A stretch of DNA of 53,140 nucleotides from a virus (taxonomy: Duplodnaviria > Heunggongvirae > Uroviricota > Caudoviricetes), in the IMG/VR virus record IMGVR_UViG_2872703611_000002; one strand, 5' to 3'. The stretch's first letter is position 1; the number at the start of each line of letters is the position of its first letter. The position numbers are program-made. Shown here in pieces: positions 36,201 through 45,200 of this stretch.

Positions 36201-39200
36201 CCAGCACGACAACCTCCTGTATTGGACGTACACCAGTCCTGATAAATATGAGGCTGTCTCATCATTGATGAGATACAACTATTGGGTATAGTTTCTGTGA
36301 TTTTGTTCTGTAGAAATGGAACACAACAACCAGTCACCACCAGTACTTCTTTAAATACGCCAAGTCCGACGCAAGCTAACCTTCTAGTCCGCTTTGAGCG
36401 AGAAGCGGAAGTATGAAACTTGTTCTCACCACCGATGAAGCATTACAAACAATGCAGTTAGTTTATCAACGGGCAGGATCAGGGCGTACTCTCAAGCGGT
36501 TTAAGATTGATAACCTCAGGTACATTCATCTTGCCACGTTTCATATAGCGTATTTGCGACAGAGTTCATGTGAAGAAACACCGACTACGAGGATGATATT
36601 CATGTTGTATTGTTCGGGAAATCACTTCTTCATATGGAACCCTCATCACACTTACAAAACCATTATTAACATAGCTTAAGTGTTAATCAAAATTGAGCCA
36701 TTCACATTACATTAGGTAAGGTATCTTACTAAAAATATTGTAATGTTTTGTTTTTAAAGATAAAGATTTCAGGTTGAAAACCAAAAATTTTTAGTTAAAA
36801 ATATTTATGGTGTATGTAAAAAATGATAAGGTAGTGATAAGACATAAGTTTGTAAAACACATGTTAAATTTCAATGCTGATGAAAAAGCTTAGCGTTAAT
36901 CAAAACAGGAGCAAGAAGATTGAAAGTTATTAGCTTAATCAATATGAAAGGTGGCGTTGGTAAGTCAACATTGGCTACCAATATTGCTAATCATCTTTCA
37001 GATAAACTTGGGCAAAAAATATTATTAATAGATATCGACCCACAATTTAACGCAACGCAATGTGTAATGGATACAAGCAAATATGTTGCACATATGAAAA
37101 GCGGAGGCGATAGCATATGTGATATTTTTTATAGTTCAAAAATTCGACTATCTACAATGACTGGTCCTTTAGTTAACACACCTAAAGAATTAGCCGATAT
37201 AACACCAATTCAATTAAATGATAATTTTCACATTGTTCCCGGAAGCCTTGGGCTATATAAAATTGAAATGAAACCAGGAGAAGGGATAGAAAACAAGCTT
37301 AGACGCTTTCTTAAAATCCATGAAAATGACTATGATTATGTCATAATTGATACCCCACCAACCCCATCAGTTTGGATGTCCAGCGCATTAATTGCATCTG
37401 ATTATTACCTCATTCCAGCCAAACCCGATCCTCTTTCGATCACTGGTATCGATCTATTAGATAGCATTATAAATGAGAAGAGAGAAAATTTCGATCTTAA
37501 GATTGAATGTGCGGGCATAGTTTTTAATATGGTTGAAGGTAATAGTAATTTATATGAGGAAAGTCTTCGTTACTTCAATAATCAAAAACGTTGGCGTAAT
37601 AAGATCTTTAAATCATATTTGAGCAAACGTACTGAGTTGGCAAGAAATCAAACAAGAGGCTTATTTATTAACAATTTAACGGATGAGGATATGAAGTTTT
37701 CGCTGTCTAAAATTACTGACGAACTTCTCTCTAGAGTAGGTGACTTATGACTGACAAAAAAAATAACTCAAAAGAAATTAAGCAACTGTTAAACTTTTTA
37801 GAGGAGTTTTCCTTTATTTCAAAAAAATTATCAAGAATCAACTTTATTGAATTACTTCAAGATAGTTATACTGATAATTTAGAAGTTAACGAAAGAAATT
37901 CAAAGTCCAAAAAAAATGATATTAAAGGTTTCCTTGTTGGGTATCTTCCGAGGATTTTATTAGACAAAGATCTCTTCCAAAAAAATAAAGATATAGATGA
38001 TTTTGCACGCATGTTAGGTATCGAAATCAGCAGGCCTGAAAAAAGATCTAGAGAGGAAATGATCGGCATAATCGTGTGTGACGTTCACGAGAAAAACTCA
38101 TCCGATTTAGGTAAGGCTTATAATATTATCAATTCAATGTCAAATAACCCTCTAGTTTTGAGTAGAATAAAAGAGAGGAAGAACCTTTCTAGCGCTCAAA
38201 ATGAGATATATGACTGGAATGAAGTTATAAAAGATATATTCAATAAGGACTAACAATGTCGAGAGAAGTAAACAGCGATTTCACTGAGTTAGTTACTTAT
38301 TTCTCTGAATATAAATTAAAAAATGTTTTCGAGAATATTAACTCAAGAGGGAAAATAAGCATGATACATAAGAGATATTATTCTTTTATGTGCCTTGTTT
38401 ACTGTTTGTATCATTTCTCCAAGGAGAAAATAGACGCCAACTCATTGGAGCGATTGCAAGAAGCTTCATCTGACCTTGGTACAGCTATGTTTATGGTTAT
38501 AAATGGTGCATACAAACCAGCAAATCTAATGATGCGAAGTTATATTGAAAATTCTTTAAAATCAATCGGTTGCTTACTAGATCCTTCAATACTTGAAGAA
38601 AAATCATTGTTTAAGGTAATTGAACAAACTGGGGAACATCCTGTCTTCAAAAAAAATCCTCTACTACATGAAACTTTAAAAGCTGAATACTCTTCGTTAT
38701 GCAGTCACGTACATACAGCTACTGTAAAAGAAATGGCTCACATAAAAGCTTTAAATGTTTTTCCCGAAATAGACTTGGTTAAAATAGATAATATTTCGAA
38801 GGTGATTGATAAGGTGGTTAAGACTATGATATCAACTATCATAAGAATTTTTCCTGATGTTTTCTTTTCCTTTGCACCTGAGTATCGAGAAAAAATCCTC
38901 CTTAGCTTAACCTCTGCACAACGAGCCTCACTTCATTCCTTAAGTGATTAACTAACAAGTATGACATAAAAACTATCCTATTGTGATAGTTTTTATGTTC
39001 ATTAAGATGACTATATCAGGAATTATTGCCGAATTTTAATTTTCATATTGATTTTACTATCTCTCACCAACTCTTGTAAGTATCCTTCCGCCACAAGCGG
39101 ACCATGTGCATTTAAATATCTGACCTAACGTGCCGTAACGCCGCAATGTCCGCTTCTGGCACAAAGCAGACGCCCACTCTCACGCGAATGCTTTGCCCTT

Positions 39201-42200: not shown

Positions 42201-45200
42201 AAGATAATGCATCACAGGTTCGGCAACGCCAAAGAACATCAGGCCGATCCCCATCCCTGCCGAAAAAAGCATCGCGAACCAGGAGTGGTAGCTGAAATCA
42301 GGCTGCGCATGGTCTGGGCCCAGCTTTATATCACCGTAACGTGAGAGTCCAAGGAACGTGACGCTCAGTAAAATCAGGGCCACAGCAAGTATGTAGAACC
42401 AGCTGGCATTCGTGAAGATTTGTTGCTGAAGTAGTTTAAAATTTTTGTCGGCGACATCCGGGAATACGGCGGCAAAGGCGACAAGAAGGAAAATTAGCAA
42501 AGCAGATGTAAAGAATACCGCTTTGTTAACCTGGCTTGTAGACTTCTTTGGGGTTGTATCATTTTCACTCATAATCATTTATTCCATTAATTAAATCCGC
42601 ACTGGATAGAAGGTACTACCTCTCACAGAGTAGCAAAGTTCAACTGGCTATGCGGGATTAATCGGAATGCATGGTGGAATGAGTGCCGATACAAATCATC
42701 CTATATTCTAAGGAGTTTTAAGTTACTCAGCCTGCCAATTACTGGGGCATTTAATTTGTATGATCTGTATCAAAGCTGGGATATAAGTTAAGTGAAGTAT
42801 ATTAGGCACGAATTACCAGCGTCTGCTCTTGGCACAAAGCGGACTGATCTTACCCAGCAATAGTGGACACGCGGCTAAGTGAGTAAACTCTCAGTCAGAG
42901 GTGACTCACATGACAAAAACAGTATCAACCAGTAAAAAACCCCGTAAACAGCATTCGCCTGAATTTCGCAGTGAAGCCCTGAAGCTTGCTGAACGCATCG
43001 GTGTTACTGCCGCAGCCCGTGAACTCAGCCTGTATGAATCACAACTCTACAACTGGCGCAGTAAACAGCAAAATCAGCAGACGTCTTCTGAACGTGAACT
43101 GGAGATGTCTACCGAGATTGCACGTCTCAAACGCCAGCTGGCAGAACGGGATGAAGAGCTGGCTATCCTCCAAAAGGCCGCGACATACTTCGCGAAGCGC
43201 CTGAAATGAAGTATGTCTTTATTGAAAAACATCAGGCTGAGTTCAGCATCAAAGCAATGTGCCGCGTGCTCCGGGTGGCCCGCAGCGGCTGGTATACGTG
43301 GTGTCAGCGGCGGACAAGGATAAGCACGCGTCAGCAGTTCCGCCAACACTGCGACAGCGTTGTCCTCGCGGCTTTTACCCGGTCAAAACAGCGTTACGGT
43401 GCCCCACGCCTGACGGATGAACTGCGTGCTCAGGGTTACCCCTTTAACGTAAAAACCGTGGCGGCAAGCCTGCGCCGTCAGGGACTGAGGGCAAAGGCCT
43501 CCCGGAAGTTCAGCCCGGTCAGCTACCGCGCACACGGCCTGCCTGTGTCAGAAAATCTGTTGGAGCAGGATTTTTACGCCAGTGGCCCGAACCAGAAGTG
43601 GGCAGGAGACATCACGTACTTACGTACAGATGAAGGCTGGCTGTATCTGGCAGTGGTCATTGACCTGTGGTCACGTGCCGTTATTGGCTGGTCAATGTCG
43701 CCACGCATGACGGCGCAACTGGCCTGCGATGCCCTGCAGATGGCGCTGTGGCGGCGTAAGAGGCCCCGGAACGTTATCGTTCACACGGACCGTGGAGGCC
43801 AGTACTGTTCAGCAGATTATCAGGCGCAACTGAAGCGGCATAATCTGCGTGGAAGTATGAGCGCAAAAGGTTGCTGCTACGATAATGCCTGCGTGGAAAG
43901 CTTCTTTCATTCGCTGAAAGTGGAATGTATCCATGGAGAACACTTTATCAGCCGGGAAATAATGCGGGCAACGGTGTTTAATTATATCGAATGTGATTAC
44001 AATCGGTGGCGGCGGCACAGTTGGTGTGGCGGCCTCAGTCCGGAACAATTTGAAAACAAGAACCTCGCTTAGGCCTGTGTCCATATTACGTGGGTAGGAT
44101 CAGACAACCACGCTAGCTCTACCCTGTGCCACAAAATGTCAATTTGCATCTGAACTAATGCACTTTAATCTCGTCACTTCAATAAATACCGAACATCCCC
44201 CTGATAAAACGACAATATGCGCTGCATAACTTCGCTCTTCCGGCACTCGCGACAGATTATGTTTAGGCGACTGTCGTAGCGACGTATTTCTCCGTCAGGT
44301 AATGACCAGATAAGGTCCGGATCAACCACAACCGGTTTCTTCAGCTTTGCCCTCGATAATTTTTTGCGGGCATTTTGCCAGTCTTTACGAGCCTGTTCAG
44401 ACGGGAATAACCCGTAGCCAGAATTGTATACATCGCCACTGGCAACCAGCTCTCTGGCCAGAACGCTCATCAGATATCTTGTTGCCCCAGTTTTAGCTTC
44501 CAGTTGTCGTAACGTCTCGCGCCCACTCTGGCGTACGAGTTCAAGAACCTGCCCTTTAATTTTTTCCCGCTCTTCTTGTGTAAAAACTTTTGCCACAAGC
44601 CCTCCTGAAAATTACCTCATGACCAGAAATTAACACTTACCCCCTGAAGCCCGGCGGAATTTCGTTATCCGGTTCAGAAATATGATTCACACAACGCTGG
44701 TTGTTCGTGCCGCTTACCGGGAGCAACCAGGGGTTCTCAAAATTCCGGTCCGGTCCAAAAAACGTCGTCGCTCGCTGAACAAATTCCGTTCCCGTTTTCC
44801 CGGTAGCCGCCAAGTATCTTGCGTAACGCCTCACGCCATCCAGCATGGCCTCTGGTGGCACCCCCTCGCGTAATCTGGCCTTCCAGGCACTGAAAGCGGA
44901 TTTCTTCGGGTTTGCCCCAGCACGCAACGGGTACTCCCGCCAGACCTGTTCGAACACATCCGGATAATCCACTCGTCCCACAGACTGCCCGGTGTTTTCC
45001 GGGACTACCCGATCGGCTTCCCGCTGAATGGCGGAATCGGCTTCAGGCTGCTGCAGTTGGTGTGATTGCTCCGCCCTTGCGGTCATCACCTGCTGCACAG
45101 CGCCCGAATCGGCTTTCAGCGCATACGCTGAATCGGCTTCCGGTGTCGTGCCTGCTGGCTGACCAAGATTGACGGTCTGAACATCCCCTGCCTGGTTCGT

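What the first reader, a model, noticed from the sequence alone, without database searches (positions are those of the whole stretch)
39148..42844. Osmoprotectant-type BCCT transporter and a membrane protein carried as prophage cargo
A BetT-like BCCT transporter (667 aa, with a long cytoplasmic tail) and a 430-aa membrane protein sit inside the prophage early region on the strand opposite to the neighbouring AT-rich operon. Metabolic transporters are uncommon lambdoid cargo and could contribute to host osmoadaptation (lysogenic conversion).
Basis: partly seen in the sequence, partly recalled or inferred. Interest (0 to 1): 0.5.

Follow-up and report, generated by a model that had tools for sequence, protein, structure and literature searches.

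The report
BetU osmoprotectant cassette in a prophage
The two genes are the already known BetU betaine-uptake (salt-tolerance) cassette, carried here as a self-contained 3.7-kb module in the swappable cargo slot of a lambda-like prophage, and the module ends exactly at two short conserved palindromes that also bound many other cargo modules.

Summary
A 667-aa BCCT transporter (40575-42578, minus strand) and a 430-aa DUF2254 membrane protein (39234-40526, minus strand) lie between the replication genes and the hok/nin/Q genes of a Qin-type lambdoid prophage.

The pair is not new. It is 97.6% and 98.4% amino-acid identical to the two genes of Tn6062 (betU plus its neighbour), which were shown experimentally to let S. 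Typhi grow in 0.8 M NaCl. BetU is described as betaine-specific, so "BetT-like" should read BetU.

Prophage carriage is real and common. In 311 of 5,426 complete E. coli genomes the cassette directly abuts the phage DUF977 gene. Near-identical copies sit on multidrug-resistance plasmids, and a roughly 94% variant sits near the fec operon.

All homology breakpoints fall at these sites. Related sites bound at least 22 alternative cargos in the same slot and occur as intergenic repeats in Alphaproteobacteria. How they recombine is unknown.

The adjacent IS3 is a later simple insertion. The gene function is ordinary. The module boundaries are the interesting part.

The parts
36387..36410 (.). Type-2 boundary site GTCCGCTTT-GAGCGA-GAAGCGGAA. 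This is the left edge of the variable cargo slot, in inverted orientation relative to the other two sites.
   Evidence: 3 mismatches to the site pattern, with 0 matches expected by chance; in 49 loci the hok-side backbone always ends at ...GTCCGCTTT GAGCGA, and the following 9-nt arm changes with the cargo; homology to L002 ends at 36409.
36411..39147 (+). First cargo module: an AT-rich three-gene operon encoding a ParA/AAA_31 ATPase (276 aa) and two unknown proteins (168 and 231 aa). Its ends are 9-bp inverted repeats (GAAGCGGAA ... GTCCGCTTC).
   Evidence: no significant PADLOC match; in L002 this slot holds MFS-GGCT-LysR instead.
39148..39171 (+). Type-1 boundary site GTCCGCTTC-TGGCAC-AAAGCAGAC. 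This is the left end of the BetU cassette.
   Evidence: homology to Rac prophages, plasmids, the fec-linked copy and IMG/VR contigs breaks here. The left arm and the two bases before TGGCAC differ with each left neighbour. TGGCACAAAGCAGAC stays with the cassette.
39234..40526 (-). DUF2254 membrane protein (430-aa ORF; RefSeq start gives 425 aa). The model has several long N-terminal helices and a C-terminal alpha/beta domain. Function unknown.
   Evidence: AlphaFold2 model pLDDT 77; no informative fold match; 98.4% identical to the second Tn6062 gene.
40547..40567 (-). GC-rich hairpin followed by a T-rich stretch, in the 48-bp gap between betU and the DUF2254 gene. It looks like a terminator or attenuator.
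40575..42578 (-). BetU-type BCCT transporter (667-aa ORF; RefSeq 665 aa) with a BetT-like C-terminal cytoplasmic domain.
   Evidence: 97.6% identical to BetU of Tn6062.
42579..42820 (-). Upstream, presumed promoter, region of betU that travels with the cassette.
   Evidence: conserved in the prophage and plasmid copies up to 42844; no strong sigma-70 consensus match.
42821..42844 (+). Type-1 boundary site GTCTGCTCT-TGGCAC-AAAGCGGAC. This is the right end of the BetU cassette. Its right arm continues into the phage backbone.
42845..44102 (+). IS3 (1258 bp), a simple insertion with a 3-bp target duplication GAC (42842-42844 and 44103-44105). It is not part of the cassette.
   Evidence: L002 is contiguous across the site; 311 genomes lack the IS3 at this junction.
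44174..44596 (-). DUF977 (LygF/Ren-like) gene, the last gene of the phage replication module. This is the backbone on the right of the slot.

Best explanation
The two genes are the BetU osmoprotectant cassette. BetU is a secondary transporter of the BCCT family that takes up glycine betaine and proline betaine when external osmolarity is high. It is followed by a DUF2254 membrane protein of unknown role.

In this window the cassette is one discrete 3.7-kb module (39148-42844). It occupies the variable cargo slot of a Qin-type lambdoid prophage, between the replication gene DUF977 and the hok/nin/Q region. It lies in the same orientation as the neighbouring phage replication and nin/Q genes and keeps about 240 bp of its own upstream DNA. 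A lysogen would therefore gain an extra betaine uptake route, which is lysogenic conversion to higher salt tolerance.

The module is bounded by two 24-bp imperfect palindromes in direct orientation, each built as 9-bp arm, TGGCAC, 9-bp arm. The outer arms belong to whatever lies next to the cassette and the inner arms belong to the cassette. This is the pattern expected if a circular or exchanged module recombined inside the central TGGCAC.

The whole slot is bounded by the same kind of site, and an unrelated AT-rich ParA-like module fills its other half. An IS3 later inserted at the very edge of the right-hand site.

Shown here: gene identity, near-identity to Tn6062, prophage context, module boundaries and their recurrence.

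Inferred: expression in the lysogen, betaine specificity of this allele, and the recombination mechanism.
For: Identity
- Pfam BCCT and DUF2254 matches are strong.
- The BCCT aligns full length to the solved BCCT 8ybq.
- The pair in an IS1-flanked unit on an S. Typhi IncHI1 plasmid is 97.6% and 98.4% identical at protein level. Both published Tn6062 cloning primers match that plasmid exactly, and one matches the window exactly.

Function
- The cloned Tn6062 two-gene fragment allowed S. Typhi to grow in 0.8 M NaCl (PMC3139670).
- BetU is described as betaine-specific (PMC4411257).

Prophage cargo
- Phage genes lie on both sides.
- 311 genomes have the betU-DUF977 junction contiguous.
- In strain GF153 the cassette occupies the same relative position in a Rac prophage at ttcA.
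- A prophage at the same rspB site carries other cargo.
- The isolated phage mEp460_ev081 has the same slot.

Module boundaries
- Breakpoints fall at 39137-39146 and 42844 in four independent contexts.
- I counted ten different left neighbours, each with its own left arm.
- L091 and L013 share a first cassette at 99.9% and diverge immediately after TGGCAC(A).
- At least 22 cargo configurations of 1.0-6.7 kb share the same backbone half-sites, and their ends are inverted repeats.
- The full site pattern occurs 3 times in the window against 0 expected.
- An arms-only pattern gives 100 unique sites in 1.2 Mb of fetched viral loci against 1 in a shuffle.
Against: - No precise empty site was found. 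None of the 5,426 genomes joins the LysR-side or ParA-side flank directly to the DUF977 side. Recent gain or loss of the cassette is therefore not demonstrated.
- No recombinase is encoded in the cassette or consistently near the sites. A 200-aa tyrosine recombinase occurs in only 3 of about 250 fetched loci.
- The hybrid sites flanking betU are weak hairpins, with z-scores near 0.
- The promoter scan found no strong sigma-70 site upstream of betU.
- NCBIfam places the protein in the BetT (choline) subfamily above its cutoff. Substrate specificity for this allele rests on literature about a close homologue.
- The DUF2254 partner is linked to the BCCT gene only in close enterobacterial relatives, so its contribution is unknown.
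Confidence: 0.8

Rival explanations
1. The pair is ordinary chromosomal DNA and the prophage boundary was drawn wrongly, or the region is a composite of chromosome and phage.
For: A roughly 94% variant lies near the fec operon in non-phage DNA; about 1,550 E. coli records fall in the 90-95% identity band. In Lelliottia a 77% homologous pair lies among housekeeping genes.
Against: - In the window, phage genes flank the pair on both sides out to int, and int abuts rspB in the identical strain.
- The 99-100% allele is contiguous with phage DUF977 in 311 genomes.
- Prophages at the same attachment site carry other cargo or none.
Confidence: 0.03
2. The adjacent IS3 brought the pair into the prophage as a composite or one-ended transposon, as IS1 does in Tn6062.
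For: IS3 abuts the cassette. Other copies of the pair are IS-flanked: IS1 in Tn6062, ISKpn26/IS1 on an E. coli plasmid, and a truncated IS600 next to the fec-linked copy.
Against: - Only one IS3 copy is present. It has its own 3-bp duplication GAC.
- The junction is contiguous without IS3 in GF153 and in 311 genomes.
- Strain 120899 has an additional IS100 that the window lacks. The IS elements are therefore later arrivals.
Confidence: 0.05
3. The transporter is a second BetT, a choline importer feeding betaine synthesis, rather than a betaine importer.
For: The NCBIfam BetT subfamily model scores 751.8 bits against a cutoff of 695, while the betaine BCCT equivalog scores 595.6 against a cutoff of 650. 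RefSeq names many copies 'choline BCCT transporter BetT'.
Against: - The protein is 97.6% identical to the gene that Holt et al. call betU and describe as a glycine betaine/proline betaine system.
- Wood 2015 states that BetU is betaine-specific.
- No betIBA genes lie nearby.
Confidence: 0.12
4. The 24-bp palindromes are REP-like structural or insulating hairpins that sit at gene boundaries. Modules move by ordinary or short-homology recombination (RecA, Red/RecET, or template switching at palindromes), not by a dedicated site-specific recombinase.
For: - The same motif is a dispersed intergenic repeat between ordinary genes in Hyphomicrobiales, Xanthobacteraceae and Nitrosomonadaceae genomes. 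It is often clustered with about 23-nt spacing.
- The nearest described repeat class, CGTC-tagged REPs, has no known transposase (PMC3733652).
- No recombinase co-occurs with the sites, and no recent empty sites were found.
- The two sites that bound the slot have different central sequences and inverted orientation. A single integration event would not produce that.
Against: - The cargo-side arms are conserved in more than 20 unrelated cargos. Homology confined to the backbone would not require this.
- Breakpoints fall within a few bases of the central hexamer every time.
- The hybrid sites are poor hairpins.
Confidence: 0.5

Closest known systems
BetU of uropathogenic E. coli, and Tn6062 of IncHI1 PST6 plasmids (Ly et al. 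2004 J Bacteriol 186:296, not held, known only through citing papers; Holt et al. 2011, PMC3139670)
   Same: Same two genes in the same order (BCCT then DUF2254). They are 97.6% and 98.4% identical in protein and 94.5% in DNA. The pair was shown to confer growth in 0.8 M NaCl.
   Different: Tn6062 is cut down to about 3.4 kb and bracketed by two IS1 copies. The window copy keeps about 170 bp more upstream DNA and both palindromic end sites, and it sits in a lambdoid prophage. No held paper links betU to a prophage.
TrkG, the potassium transporter carried by the Rac prophage
   Same: It is an osmoregulatory transporter carried as lambdoid prophage cargo. In strain GF153 trkG and this cassette are in the same Rac prophage.
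   Different: It belongs to a different protein family and lies in a different part of the prophage, the late region. No link to the palindromic sites was examined.
pdif (Xer) modules of Acinetobacter plasmids, and integron gene cassettes
   Same: These are gene modules without their own recombinase. They are bounded by short sites built of two inverted arms around a 6-8 bp centre, and the arms next to a module travel with it. They occur in many contexts.
   Different: The arm sequences do not resemble the E. coli dif/XerCD consensus, and there is no integron GTTRRRY core; both comparisons are with consensus sequences recalled from the literature. No intI is present in the window. The recombinase here is unknown.
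REP/BIME elements, especially the CGTC-tagged REPs of Alphaproteobacteria (Di Nocera et al. 2013, PMC3733652)
   Same: They are 20-40 bp palindromes, high-copy and intergenic in some genomes, often clustered, and have no dedicated transposase. The motif here behaves this way in Hyphomicrobiales genomes.
   Different: The published CGTC REPs have 4-5 nt loops and an unpaired head. Here the centre is 6-7 nt and the (C/T)GTC bases are part of the paired arm. The family consensus sequences are in figures that were not available, so membership could not be tested.
P2/P4 defence hotspots (Rousset et al. 2022, PMC9122126; PMC13586616) and PeSL mobile regulatory cassettes of T4-type phages (recalled from the literature)
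   Same: These are fixed positions in phage genomes where unrelated cargo is swapped rapidly. One P2-like contig (L067) carries the same site next to its gpA-like gene.
   Different: The two hotspot papers do not mention any palindrome or inverted repeat at the borders. The P2 reference genome has no such site in its tin-old region.

Membership tests
BCCT transporter family (Pfam PF02028) | Full-length match to the BCCT profile above the gathering score | tested here: met
   662.8 bits against a cutoff of 27, covering profile positions 1-485 of 485.
BetU (betaine-specific osmoregulatory BCCT of E. coli) | Near-identity to the gene called betU in Tn6062 | tested here: met
   97.6% over 665 aa to the BCCT of the IS1-flanked unit on an S. 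Typhi IncHI1 plasmid. Both published Tn6062 primers match that plasmid exactly.
BetU (betaine-specific osmoregulatory BCCT of E. coli) | Followed by the second Tn6062 gene (DUF2254 membrane protein) | tested here: met
   Same gene order, 98.4% identity.
BetU (betaine-specific osmoregulatory BCCT of E. coli) | Transports glycine betaine and proline betaine, not choline, and confers osmotolerance | not testable with these tools
   Known only from the literature on close homologues.
BetT choline transporter | Score above the NCBIfam NF007399 cutoff | tested here: met
   751.8 bits against 695. The model is of 'subfamily' type, not an equivalog.
BetT choline transporter | Linked to the betIBA choline-to-betaine genes | tested here: not met
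   The neighbours are a DUF2254 gene, IS3, DUF977 and a ParA-like operon.
Lambdoid prophage cargo (moron, lysogenic conversion gene) | Lies between phage modules and is present or absent among otherwise related phages | tested here: met
Lambdoid prophage cargo (moron, lysogenic conversion gene) | Has its own promoter and terminator and is expressed from the repressed prophage | tested here: inconclusive
   About 240 bp of upstream DNA travels with the cassette, and a terminator-like hairpin follows betU. No strong sigma-70 consensus was found. No expression data are available.
Composite transposon (Tn6062-like) | The same IS at both ends | tested here: not met
   A single IS3 with its own 3-bp duplication; it is absent in 311 genomes.
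Integron gene cassette | attC site with RYYYAAC/GTTRRRY cores, and an IntI integrase | tested here: not met
   The site consensus is caA(t/c)GTCCGCTnnTGGCACAAAGCGGACa, with no GTTRRRY. No intI is present in the window.
Xer (dif/pdif) module | Site of two roughly 11-bp arms around a 6-bp centre | tested here: met
   Conserved positions span about 28 nt in an 11-6-11 arrangement.
Xer (dif/pdif) module | Arms matching the XerC/XerD binding consensus | tested here: not met
   Comparison by eye with the E. coli dif sequence recalled from the literature shows no convincing similarity.
REP elements | Short palindrome, many intergenic copies per genome, often clustered | tested here: met
   This holds for Hyphomicrobiales, Xanthobacteraceae and Nitrosomonadaceae genomes. 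In the enterobacterial loci annotated here the copies lay in prophage or plasmid DNA.
REP elements | Association with a RAYT (Y1) transposase, or membership of a published GTAG/CGTC family | not tested
   The published consensus sequences are in figures that were not available. No Y1 transposase was looked for genome-wide.

The most novel reading that the evidence does not exclude
The 24-bp sites (9-bp arm, 6-nt centre, 9-bp arm, with a few discrete centre classes such as TGGCAC and TCGCTC) are the recombination sites of a cassette-exchange system not described in the papers I could read. A recombinase or host factor acting in trans swaps or inserts cargo modules in lambdoid phages and some P2-like phages, and seeds the same modules onto plasmids. 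Sites with the same centre would give integration or excision (the BetU cassette). Two sites with different centres would give exchange of the whole slot. This would be a natural equivalent of recombinase-mediated cassette exchange.
Probability: 0.3. Interest if true: 0.8.

Novelty: new member of a known kind. Interest (0 to 1): 0.42.

Why it matters
Function. The gene function adds little, because BetU and its osmotolerance phenotype are published.

Carriage. Three points are worth knowing:
- About 6% of complete E. coli genomes carry this salt-tolerance cassette inside a lambdoid prophage, so temperate phages may spread it.
- The copy next to qnrS1/blaCTX-M-15 on IncY plasmids of S. Typhi, and on an IncFIA Klebsiella plasmid, sits in a fragment of a Qin-like prophage slot. 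That links phage cargo to resistance plasmids.
- The cassette and more than 20 unrelated cargos end at the same conserved palindromes. This gives a concrete, testable handle on how phage cargo slots are shuffled, a question the recent hotspot papers leave open.

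Tried and rejected
- Empty sites. I built synthetic "cassette-less" junctions for the window-type and the LysR-type left flanks. None of the 5,426 genomes covered the junction.
- Phage records. No INPHARED phage carries the pair; only distant BCCT genes matched.
- Rfam. No family matches any site, in the window or in the alphaproteobacterial arrays.
- PADLOC. The ParA-like operon, the two genes of interest and the alternative cargo of XH989 gave no credible defence-system match.
- DUF2254-BCCT coupling. The pairing holds only in close enterobacterial relatives. Serratia and Alcanivorax homologues stand alone, so an obligate two-component transporter is unlikely.
- Small tyrosine recombinase. 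A 200-aa catalytic-domain-only recombinase lies next to one site variant, but it is present in only 3 loci. I rejected it as the general recombinase.
- Hairpin or terminator reading. The hybrid sites fold no better than shuffles.
- P2 reference. Its tin-old region has no site.
- Literature. A text search for the motif found only unrelated primer matches. Ly et al. 2004 and Nilsson et al. 2004 (Mol Biol Evol 21:1, whose title suggests relevance) are not held and could not be read.
- Sigma-54 promoter reading of TGGCAC-N5. By eye, the -12 TTGC element is absent.

Full report
**Observation**

The window holds a 667-aa ORF at 40575-42578 and a 430-aa ORF at 39234-40526, both on the minus strand.
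- The first ORF matches the Pfam BCCT profile end to end (E 3e-199). It also matches the NCBIfam BetT subfamily model above its cutoff, at 751.8 bits against 695.
- It aligns over residues 7-667 with a solved 685-aa BCCT (8ybq), including the long C-terminal cytoplasmic domain.
- The second ORF matches Pfam DUF2254 (E 2e-92).
- The three-gene operon to the left (36920-38951) is on the plus strand at 32-38% GC.

**Where the window comes from**

Window positions 35001-47000 are 100% identical to the chromosome of ETEC strain 120899, apart from an IS100 that only that strain has.

The annotated record shows a Qin-type lambdoid prophage integrated next to rspB. In window orientation the order is: capsid and packaging genes, lysis genes, Q, RusA, DUF968, hokD, the ParA-like operon, DUF2254, BCCT, IS3, DUF977, an O-like protein, YdaT, Cro, CI, dicB, exonuclease, xis and int.

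The pair therefore sits between the replication module and the hok/nin/Q region.

**What the pair is**

A literature search on BCCT transporters of E. coli led to BetU.
- Holt et al. 2011 (PMC3139670) found that IncHI1 PST6 plasmids let S. Typhi grow in 0.8 M NaCl. They traced this to Tn6062, a composite transposon with "two putative transporters", one of which they call betU.
- A cloned 3405-bp fragment with the two genes was sufficient for the phenotype.
- One of their primers matches the window exactly at 39244-39263.
- On an S. Typhi IncHI1-type plasmid, the same pair lies between two IS1 copies. Both primers match it exactly, and the proteins are 97.6% (BCCT) and 98.4% (DUF2254) identical to those of the window.
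- Wood 2015 (PMC4411257) lists BetU as a betaine-specific homologue of BetP, in contrast to the choline-specific BetT.

The original BetU paper (Ly et al. 2004) is not held. I know its content only through the citing papers.

**How common the pair is, and where it occurs**

The 3.7-kb segment is found in 1,965 of 5,426 complete E. coli genomes.
- In the sampled case, the fec-linked copy at about 94% identity lies beside acuR and a truncated IS600, within a few kilobases of the fec operon. About 1,550 records fall in the 90-95% identity band.
- About 400 records carry the allele at 99% identity or more.
- In 311 genomes the betU upstream region is contiguous with the phage DUF977 gene. In strain GF153 the carrier is a Rac prophage at ttcA, where the cassette follows MFS-GGCT-LysR cargo.
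- A prophage at the same rspB site in strain XH989 has two unrelated genes in the slot. K-12 Qin has flxA/ydfV there.

The pair is also on 1,531 plasmids.
- Most are Klebsiella plasmids with an IS-bounded copy at about 93% identity.
- 68 plasmids carry the allele at 99-100% identity.

The pair is absent from isolated phage genomes in INPHARED.

**The module boundaries**

When the window is aligned with a Rac prophage, two plasmids and the fec-linked copy, homology starts at 39137-39146. Where it is not cut by an IS, it ends at 42844.

These points coincide with two 24-bp sites in direct orientation:
- GTCCGCTTC-TGGCAC-AAAGCAGAC at 39148-39171
- GTCTGCTCT-TGGCAC-AAAGCGGAC at 42821-42844

A third, inverted relative lies at 36387-36410. 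No match is expected by chance.

At the left site, the 9-nt arm next to the neighbour changes with the neighbour, while TGGCACAAAGCAGAC stays with the cassette.
- Left-arm examples are GTCCGCTTC, GTCCGCTAT, GCCCGCTTT and GTTTGCTTT.
- In IMG/VR contigs the bases just before TGGCAC also vary (GCTCA, GCTAC, GCTCC, GCTTA).

A locus without the cassette has one site with both outer arms, GTCCGCTAT-TGGCAC-AAAGCGGAC. This is the attL/attR-like pattern expected from a crossover inside the central hexamer.

**The same sites bound the whole slot**

- In 49 fetched loci the hok-side backbone always ends ...GTCCGCTTT GAGCGA, and the DUF977 side always begins TGGCAC AAAGCGGAC.
- Between these half-sites lie at least 22 different cargos of 1.0-6.7 kb.
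- The two ends of each cargo are 9-bp inverted repeats of the form NNAGCGGAC ... GTCCGCTNN.
- Multi-module cargos have internal sites.
- The BetU cassette is always the DUF977-proximal module. It follows five different first modules in slots with both boundary sites.
- L091 and L013 share a first module at 99.9% identity and then diverge immediately after TGGCAC(A). One continues into the BetU cassette. The other continues into a module encoding a 200-aa tyrosine recombinase.
- Isolated phages (Tritos, Evi, mEp460_ev081, 204576) have the DUF977-side half-site and backbone; mEp460_ev081 was shown to have the slot itself.
- In K-12 Qin the flxA/ydfV segment lies between two such sites.

**Link to resistance plasmids**

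On an IncY plasmid of S. Typhi and an IncFIA Klebsiella plasmid, the cassette lies next to relB, ISKpn19, qnrS1 and blaCTX-M-15.
- The DNA to the right of the cassette is 98.5% identical to K-12 Qin: the site, relB and the start of relE.
- The DNA about 1 kb to the left matches the replication-side backbone of Qin, including its type-2 site.

These plasmids therefore carry a piece of a Qin-like prophage slot with the BetU cassette in it.

**IS3**

The element at 42845-44102 has the IS3 ends and a 3-bp duplication GAC. It is missing from the otherwise identical junction in GF153 and in 311 genomes. It is a later simple insertion at the very edge of the right-hand site, not the vehicle of the cassette.

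**What the sites are**

- Many genome hits are from Hyphomicrobiales, Xanthobacteraceae, Pseudolabrys and Nitrosomonadaceae.
- There the motif is an intergenic repeat between ordinary genes. It often occurs in clusters of two or three copies about 23 nt apart, with identical arms and different centres: TGGCAC, CGGGGGT, TGACCC.
- Across 70 viral and 136 genomic unique contexts, conservation extends over about 28 nt.
- An arms-only search finds 100 unique sites in 1.2 Mb of viral loci against 1 in a shuffle, with a handful of centre classes.
- No Rfam family matches.

The nearest described class is the CGTC-tagged REPs of Alphaproteobacteria, which have no known transposase (PMC3733652). I could not test membership because the consensus sequences are in figures.

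The P2/P4 hotspot papers do not mention border palindromes. The P2 reference has none, although one P2-like contig does.

**Mechanism of mobility**

Two readings remain.

(a) A site-specific system acting in trans. In favour:
- conserved cargo-side arms in unrelated cargos;
- breakpoints always at the hexamer;
- poor hairpin stability of the hybrid sites.

(b) REP-like boundary elements at which general or short-homology recombination occurs. In favour:
- REP-like behaviour in other phyla;
- no co-occurring recombinase;
- no recent empty sites;
- different centres and inverted orientation of the two slot borders.

I rate the two readings as roughly comparable. I report (b) as the stronger rival to the novel reading.

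**DUF2254**

- The model shows several long N-terminal helices at low confidence and a confident C-terminal alpha/beta domain. No solved relative was found.
- The family is known mainly from a survey of knotted folds (PMC11184937).
- The BCCT-DUF2254 pairing is kept in Lelliottia (chromosomal, no sites) and in Enterobacter asburiae. In E. asburiae it lies at a prophage end next to a tail-fibre invertase, with the cassette-side site present.
- More distant DUF2254 genes stand alone.
- A terminator-like hairpin separates the two genes.

Most likely BetU alone does the transport, and DUF2254 is an inherited neighbour of unknown role. This is inference.

**Verdict**

The additions from this work are:
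- the carrier: a lambdoid prophage slot in about 6% of complete E. coli genomes;
- the prophage origin of the plasmid copies;
- the sharply defined palindromic module borders shared with many other cargos.

Noticed in passing
window 36411-39147: An AT-rich (32-38% GC) three-gene module encoding a ParA/AAA_31 ATPase and two proteins with no family match. It is bounded by the same palindromic sites and occupies the position that MFS-GGCT-LysR holds in Rac prophages. It has no credible PADLOC match, so it is a candidate for an uncharacterised phage-carried function, perhaps defence.
   Followed up: partly
window 42845-44102: IS3 inserted exactly at the outer edge of the right-hand palindrome. Its 3-bp target duplication GAC is the last three bases of the site. 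In strain 120899 an IS100 lies about 100 bp further in (around window 42735-42740). IS elements may be attracted to this border.
   Followed up: partly
L004 10905-16202 and L005 (IncY S. Typhi and IncFIA Klebsiella plasmids): The betU segment beside qnrS1/ISKpn19/blaCTX-M-15 is a fragment of a Qin-like prophage slot: replication-side backbone with a type-2 site, a roughly 0.9-kb first module, the BetU cassette, then relB and the start of relE at 98.5% identity to K-12 Qin.
   Followed up: yes
L128 (K-12 MG1655 Qin) 4973-4996 and 5973-5996: The flxA/ydfV segment of the K-12 Qin prophage lies between a type-1 and a type-2 site. The type-1 site overlaps the annotated ydfV ORF just upstream of relB.
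   Followed up: partly
L159, L152, L130, L158 (Hyphomicrobiales and Pseudolabrys MAG contigs): The same 28-nt palindrome (ATGTCCGCTnT-TGGCAC-AAAGCGGACAT) is a dispersed intergenic repeat. It occurs in clusters of two or three copies about 23 nt apart that share arms but have different centres (TGGCAC, CGGGGGT, TGACCC). Several copies lie at contig ends. Near-identity of a non-coding 24-mer between Alphaproteobacteria and E. coli phages is unexplained.
   Followed up: partly
L005 7295-7897; also L013 and L098: A 200-aa tyrosine recombinase consisting only of the catalytic domain lies 19 bp from a site variant (GTCCGCTGT-TGGCAC-AGGGCTGCT), in a module that can replace the BetU cassette. It is present in only 3 of about 250 fetched loci.
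   Followed up: partly
L067 around 5749 (P2-like IMG/VR contig): The same type-1 site lies in a P2-like prophage between an 833-aa ORF with no family assignment and the gpA-like replication gene, that is, in the tin-old type hotspot. The P2 reference genome has no such site.
   Followed up: partly
window 35901-36075: A sok antitoxin RNA (Rfam RF01794, 110 bits) with hokD next to it, about 310 bp from the type-2 boundary site.
   Followed up: no
window 18116-20731: Three ORFs with the sizes of IS66-family tnpA/tnpB/tnpC lie inside the head-gene cluster. In strain 120899 an IS66-family element (ISCro1) instead splits the large terminase gene, so the window comes from a related but different strain.
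   Followed up: no
window 32041-33324: A 427-aa ORF with no PADLOC match lies in a low-GC (39%) patch between the Q gene and a DNA methyltransferase gene. This may be another cargo position.
   Followed up: no
L003 9179-9835 (fec-linked locus, strain SCU-118): The 94% chromosomal copy of the pair lies next to a regulator annotated AcuR (acrylate utilisation). Solved DddT (DMSP) and trimethylamine transporters are among the BCCT structural relatives. A substrate other than betaine for some alleles was not examined.
   Followed up: no
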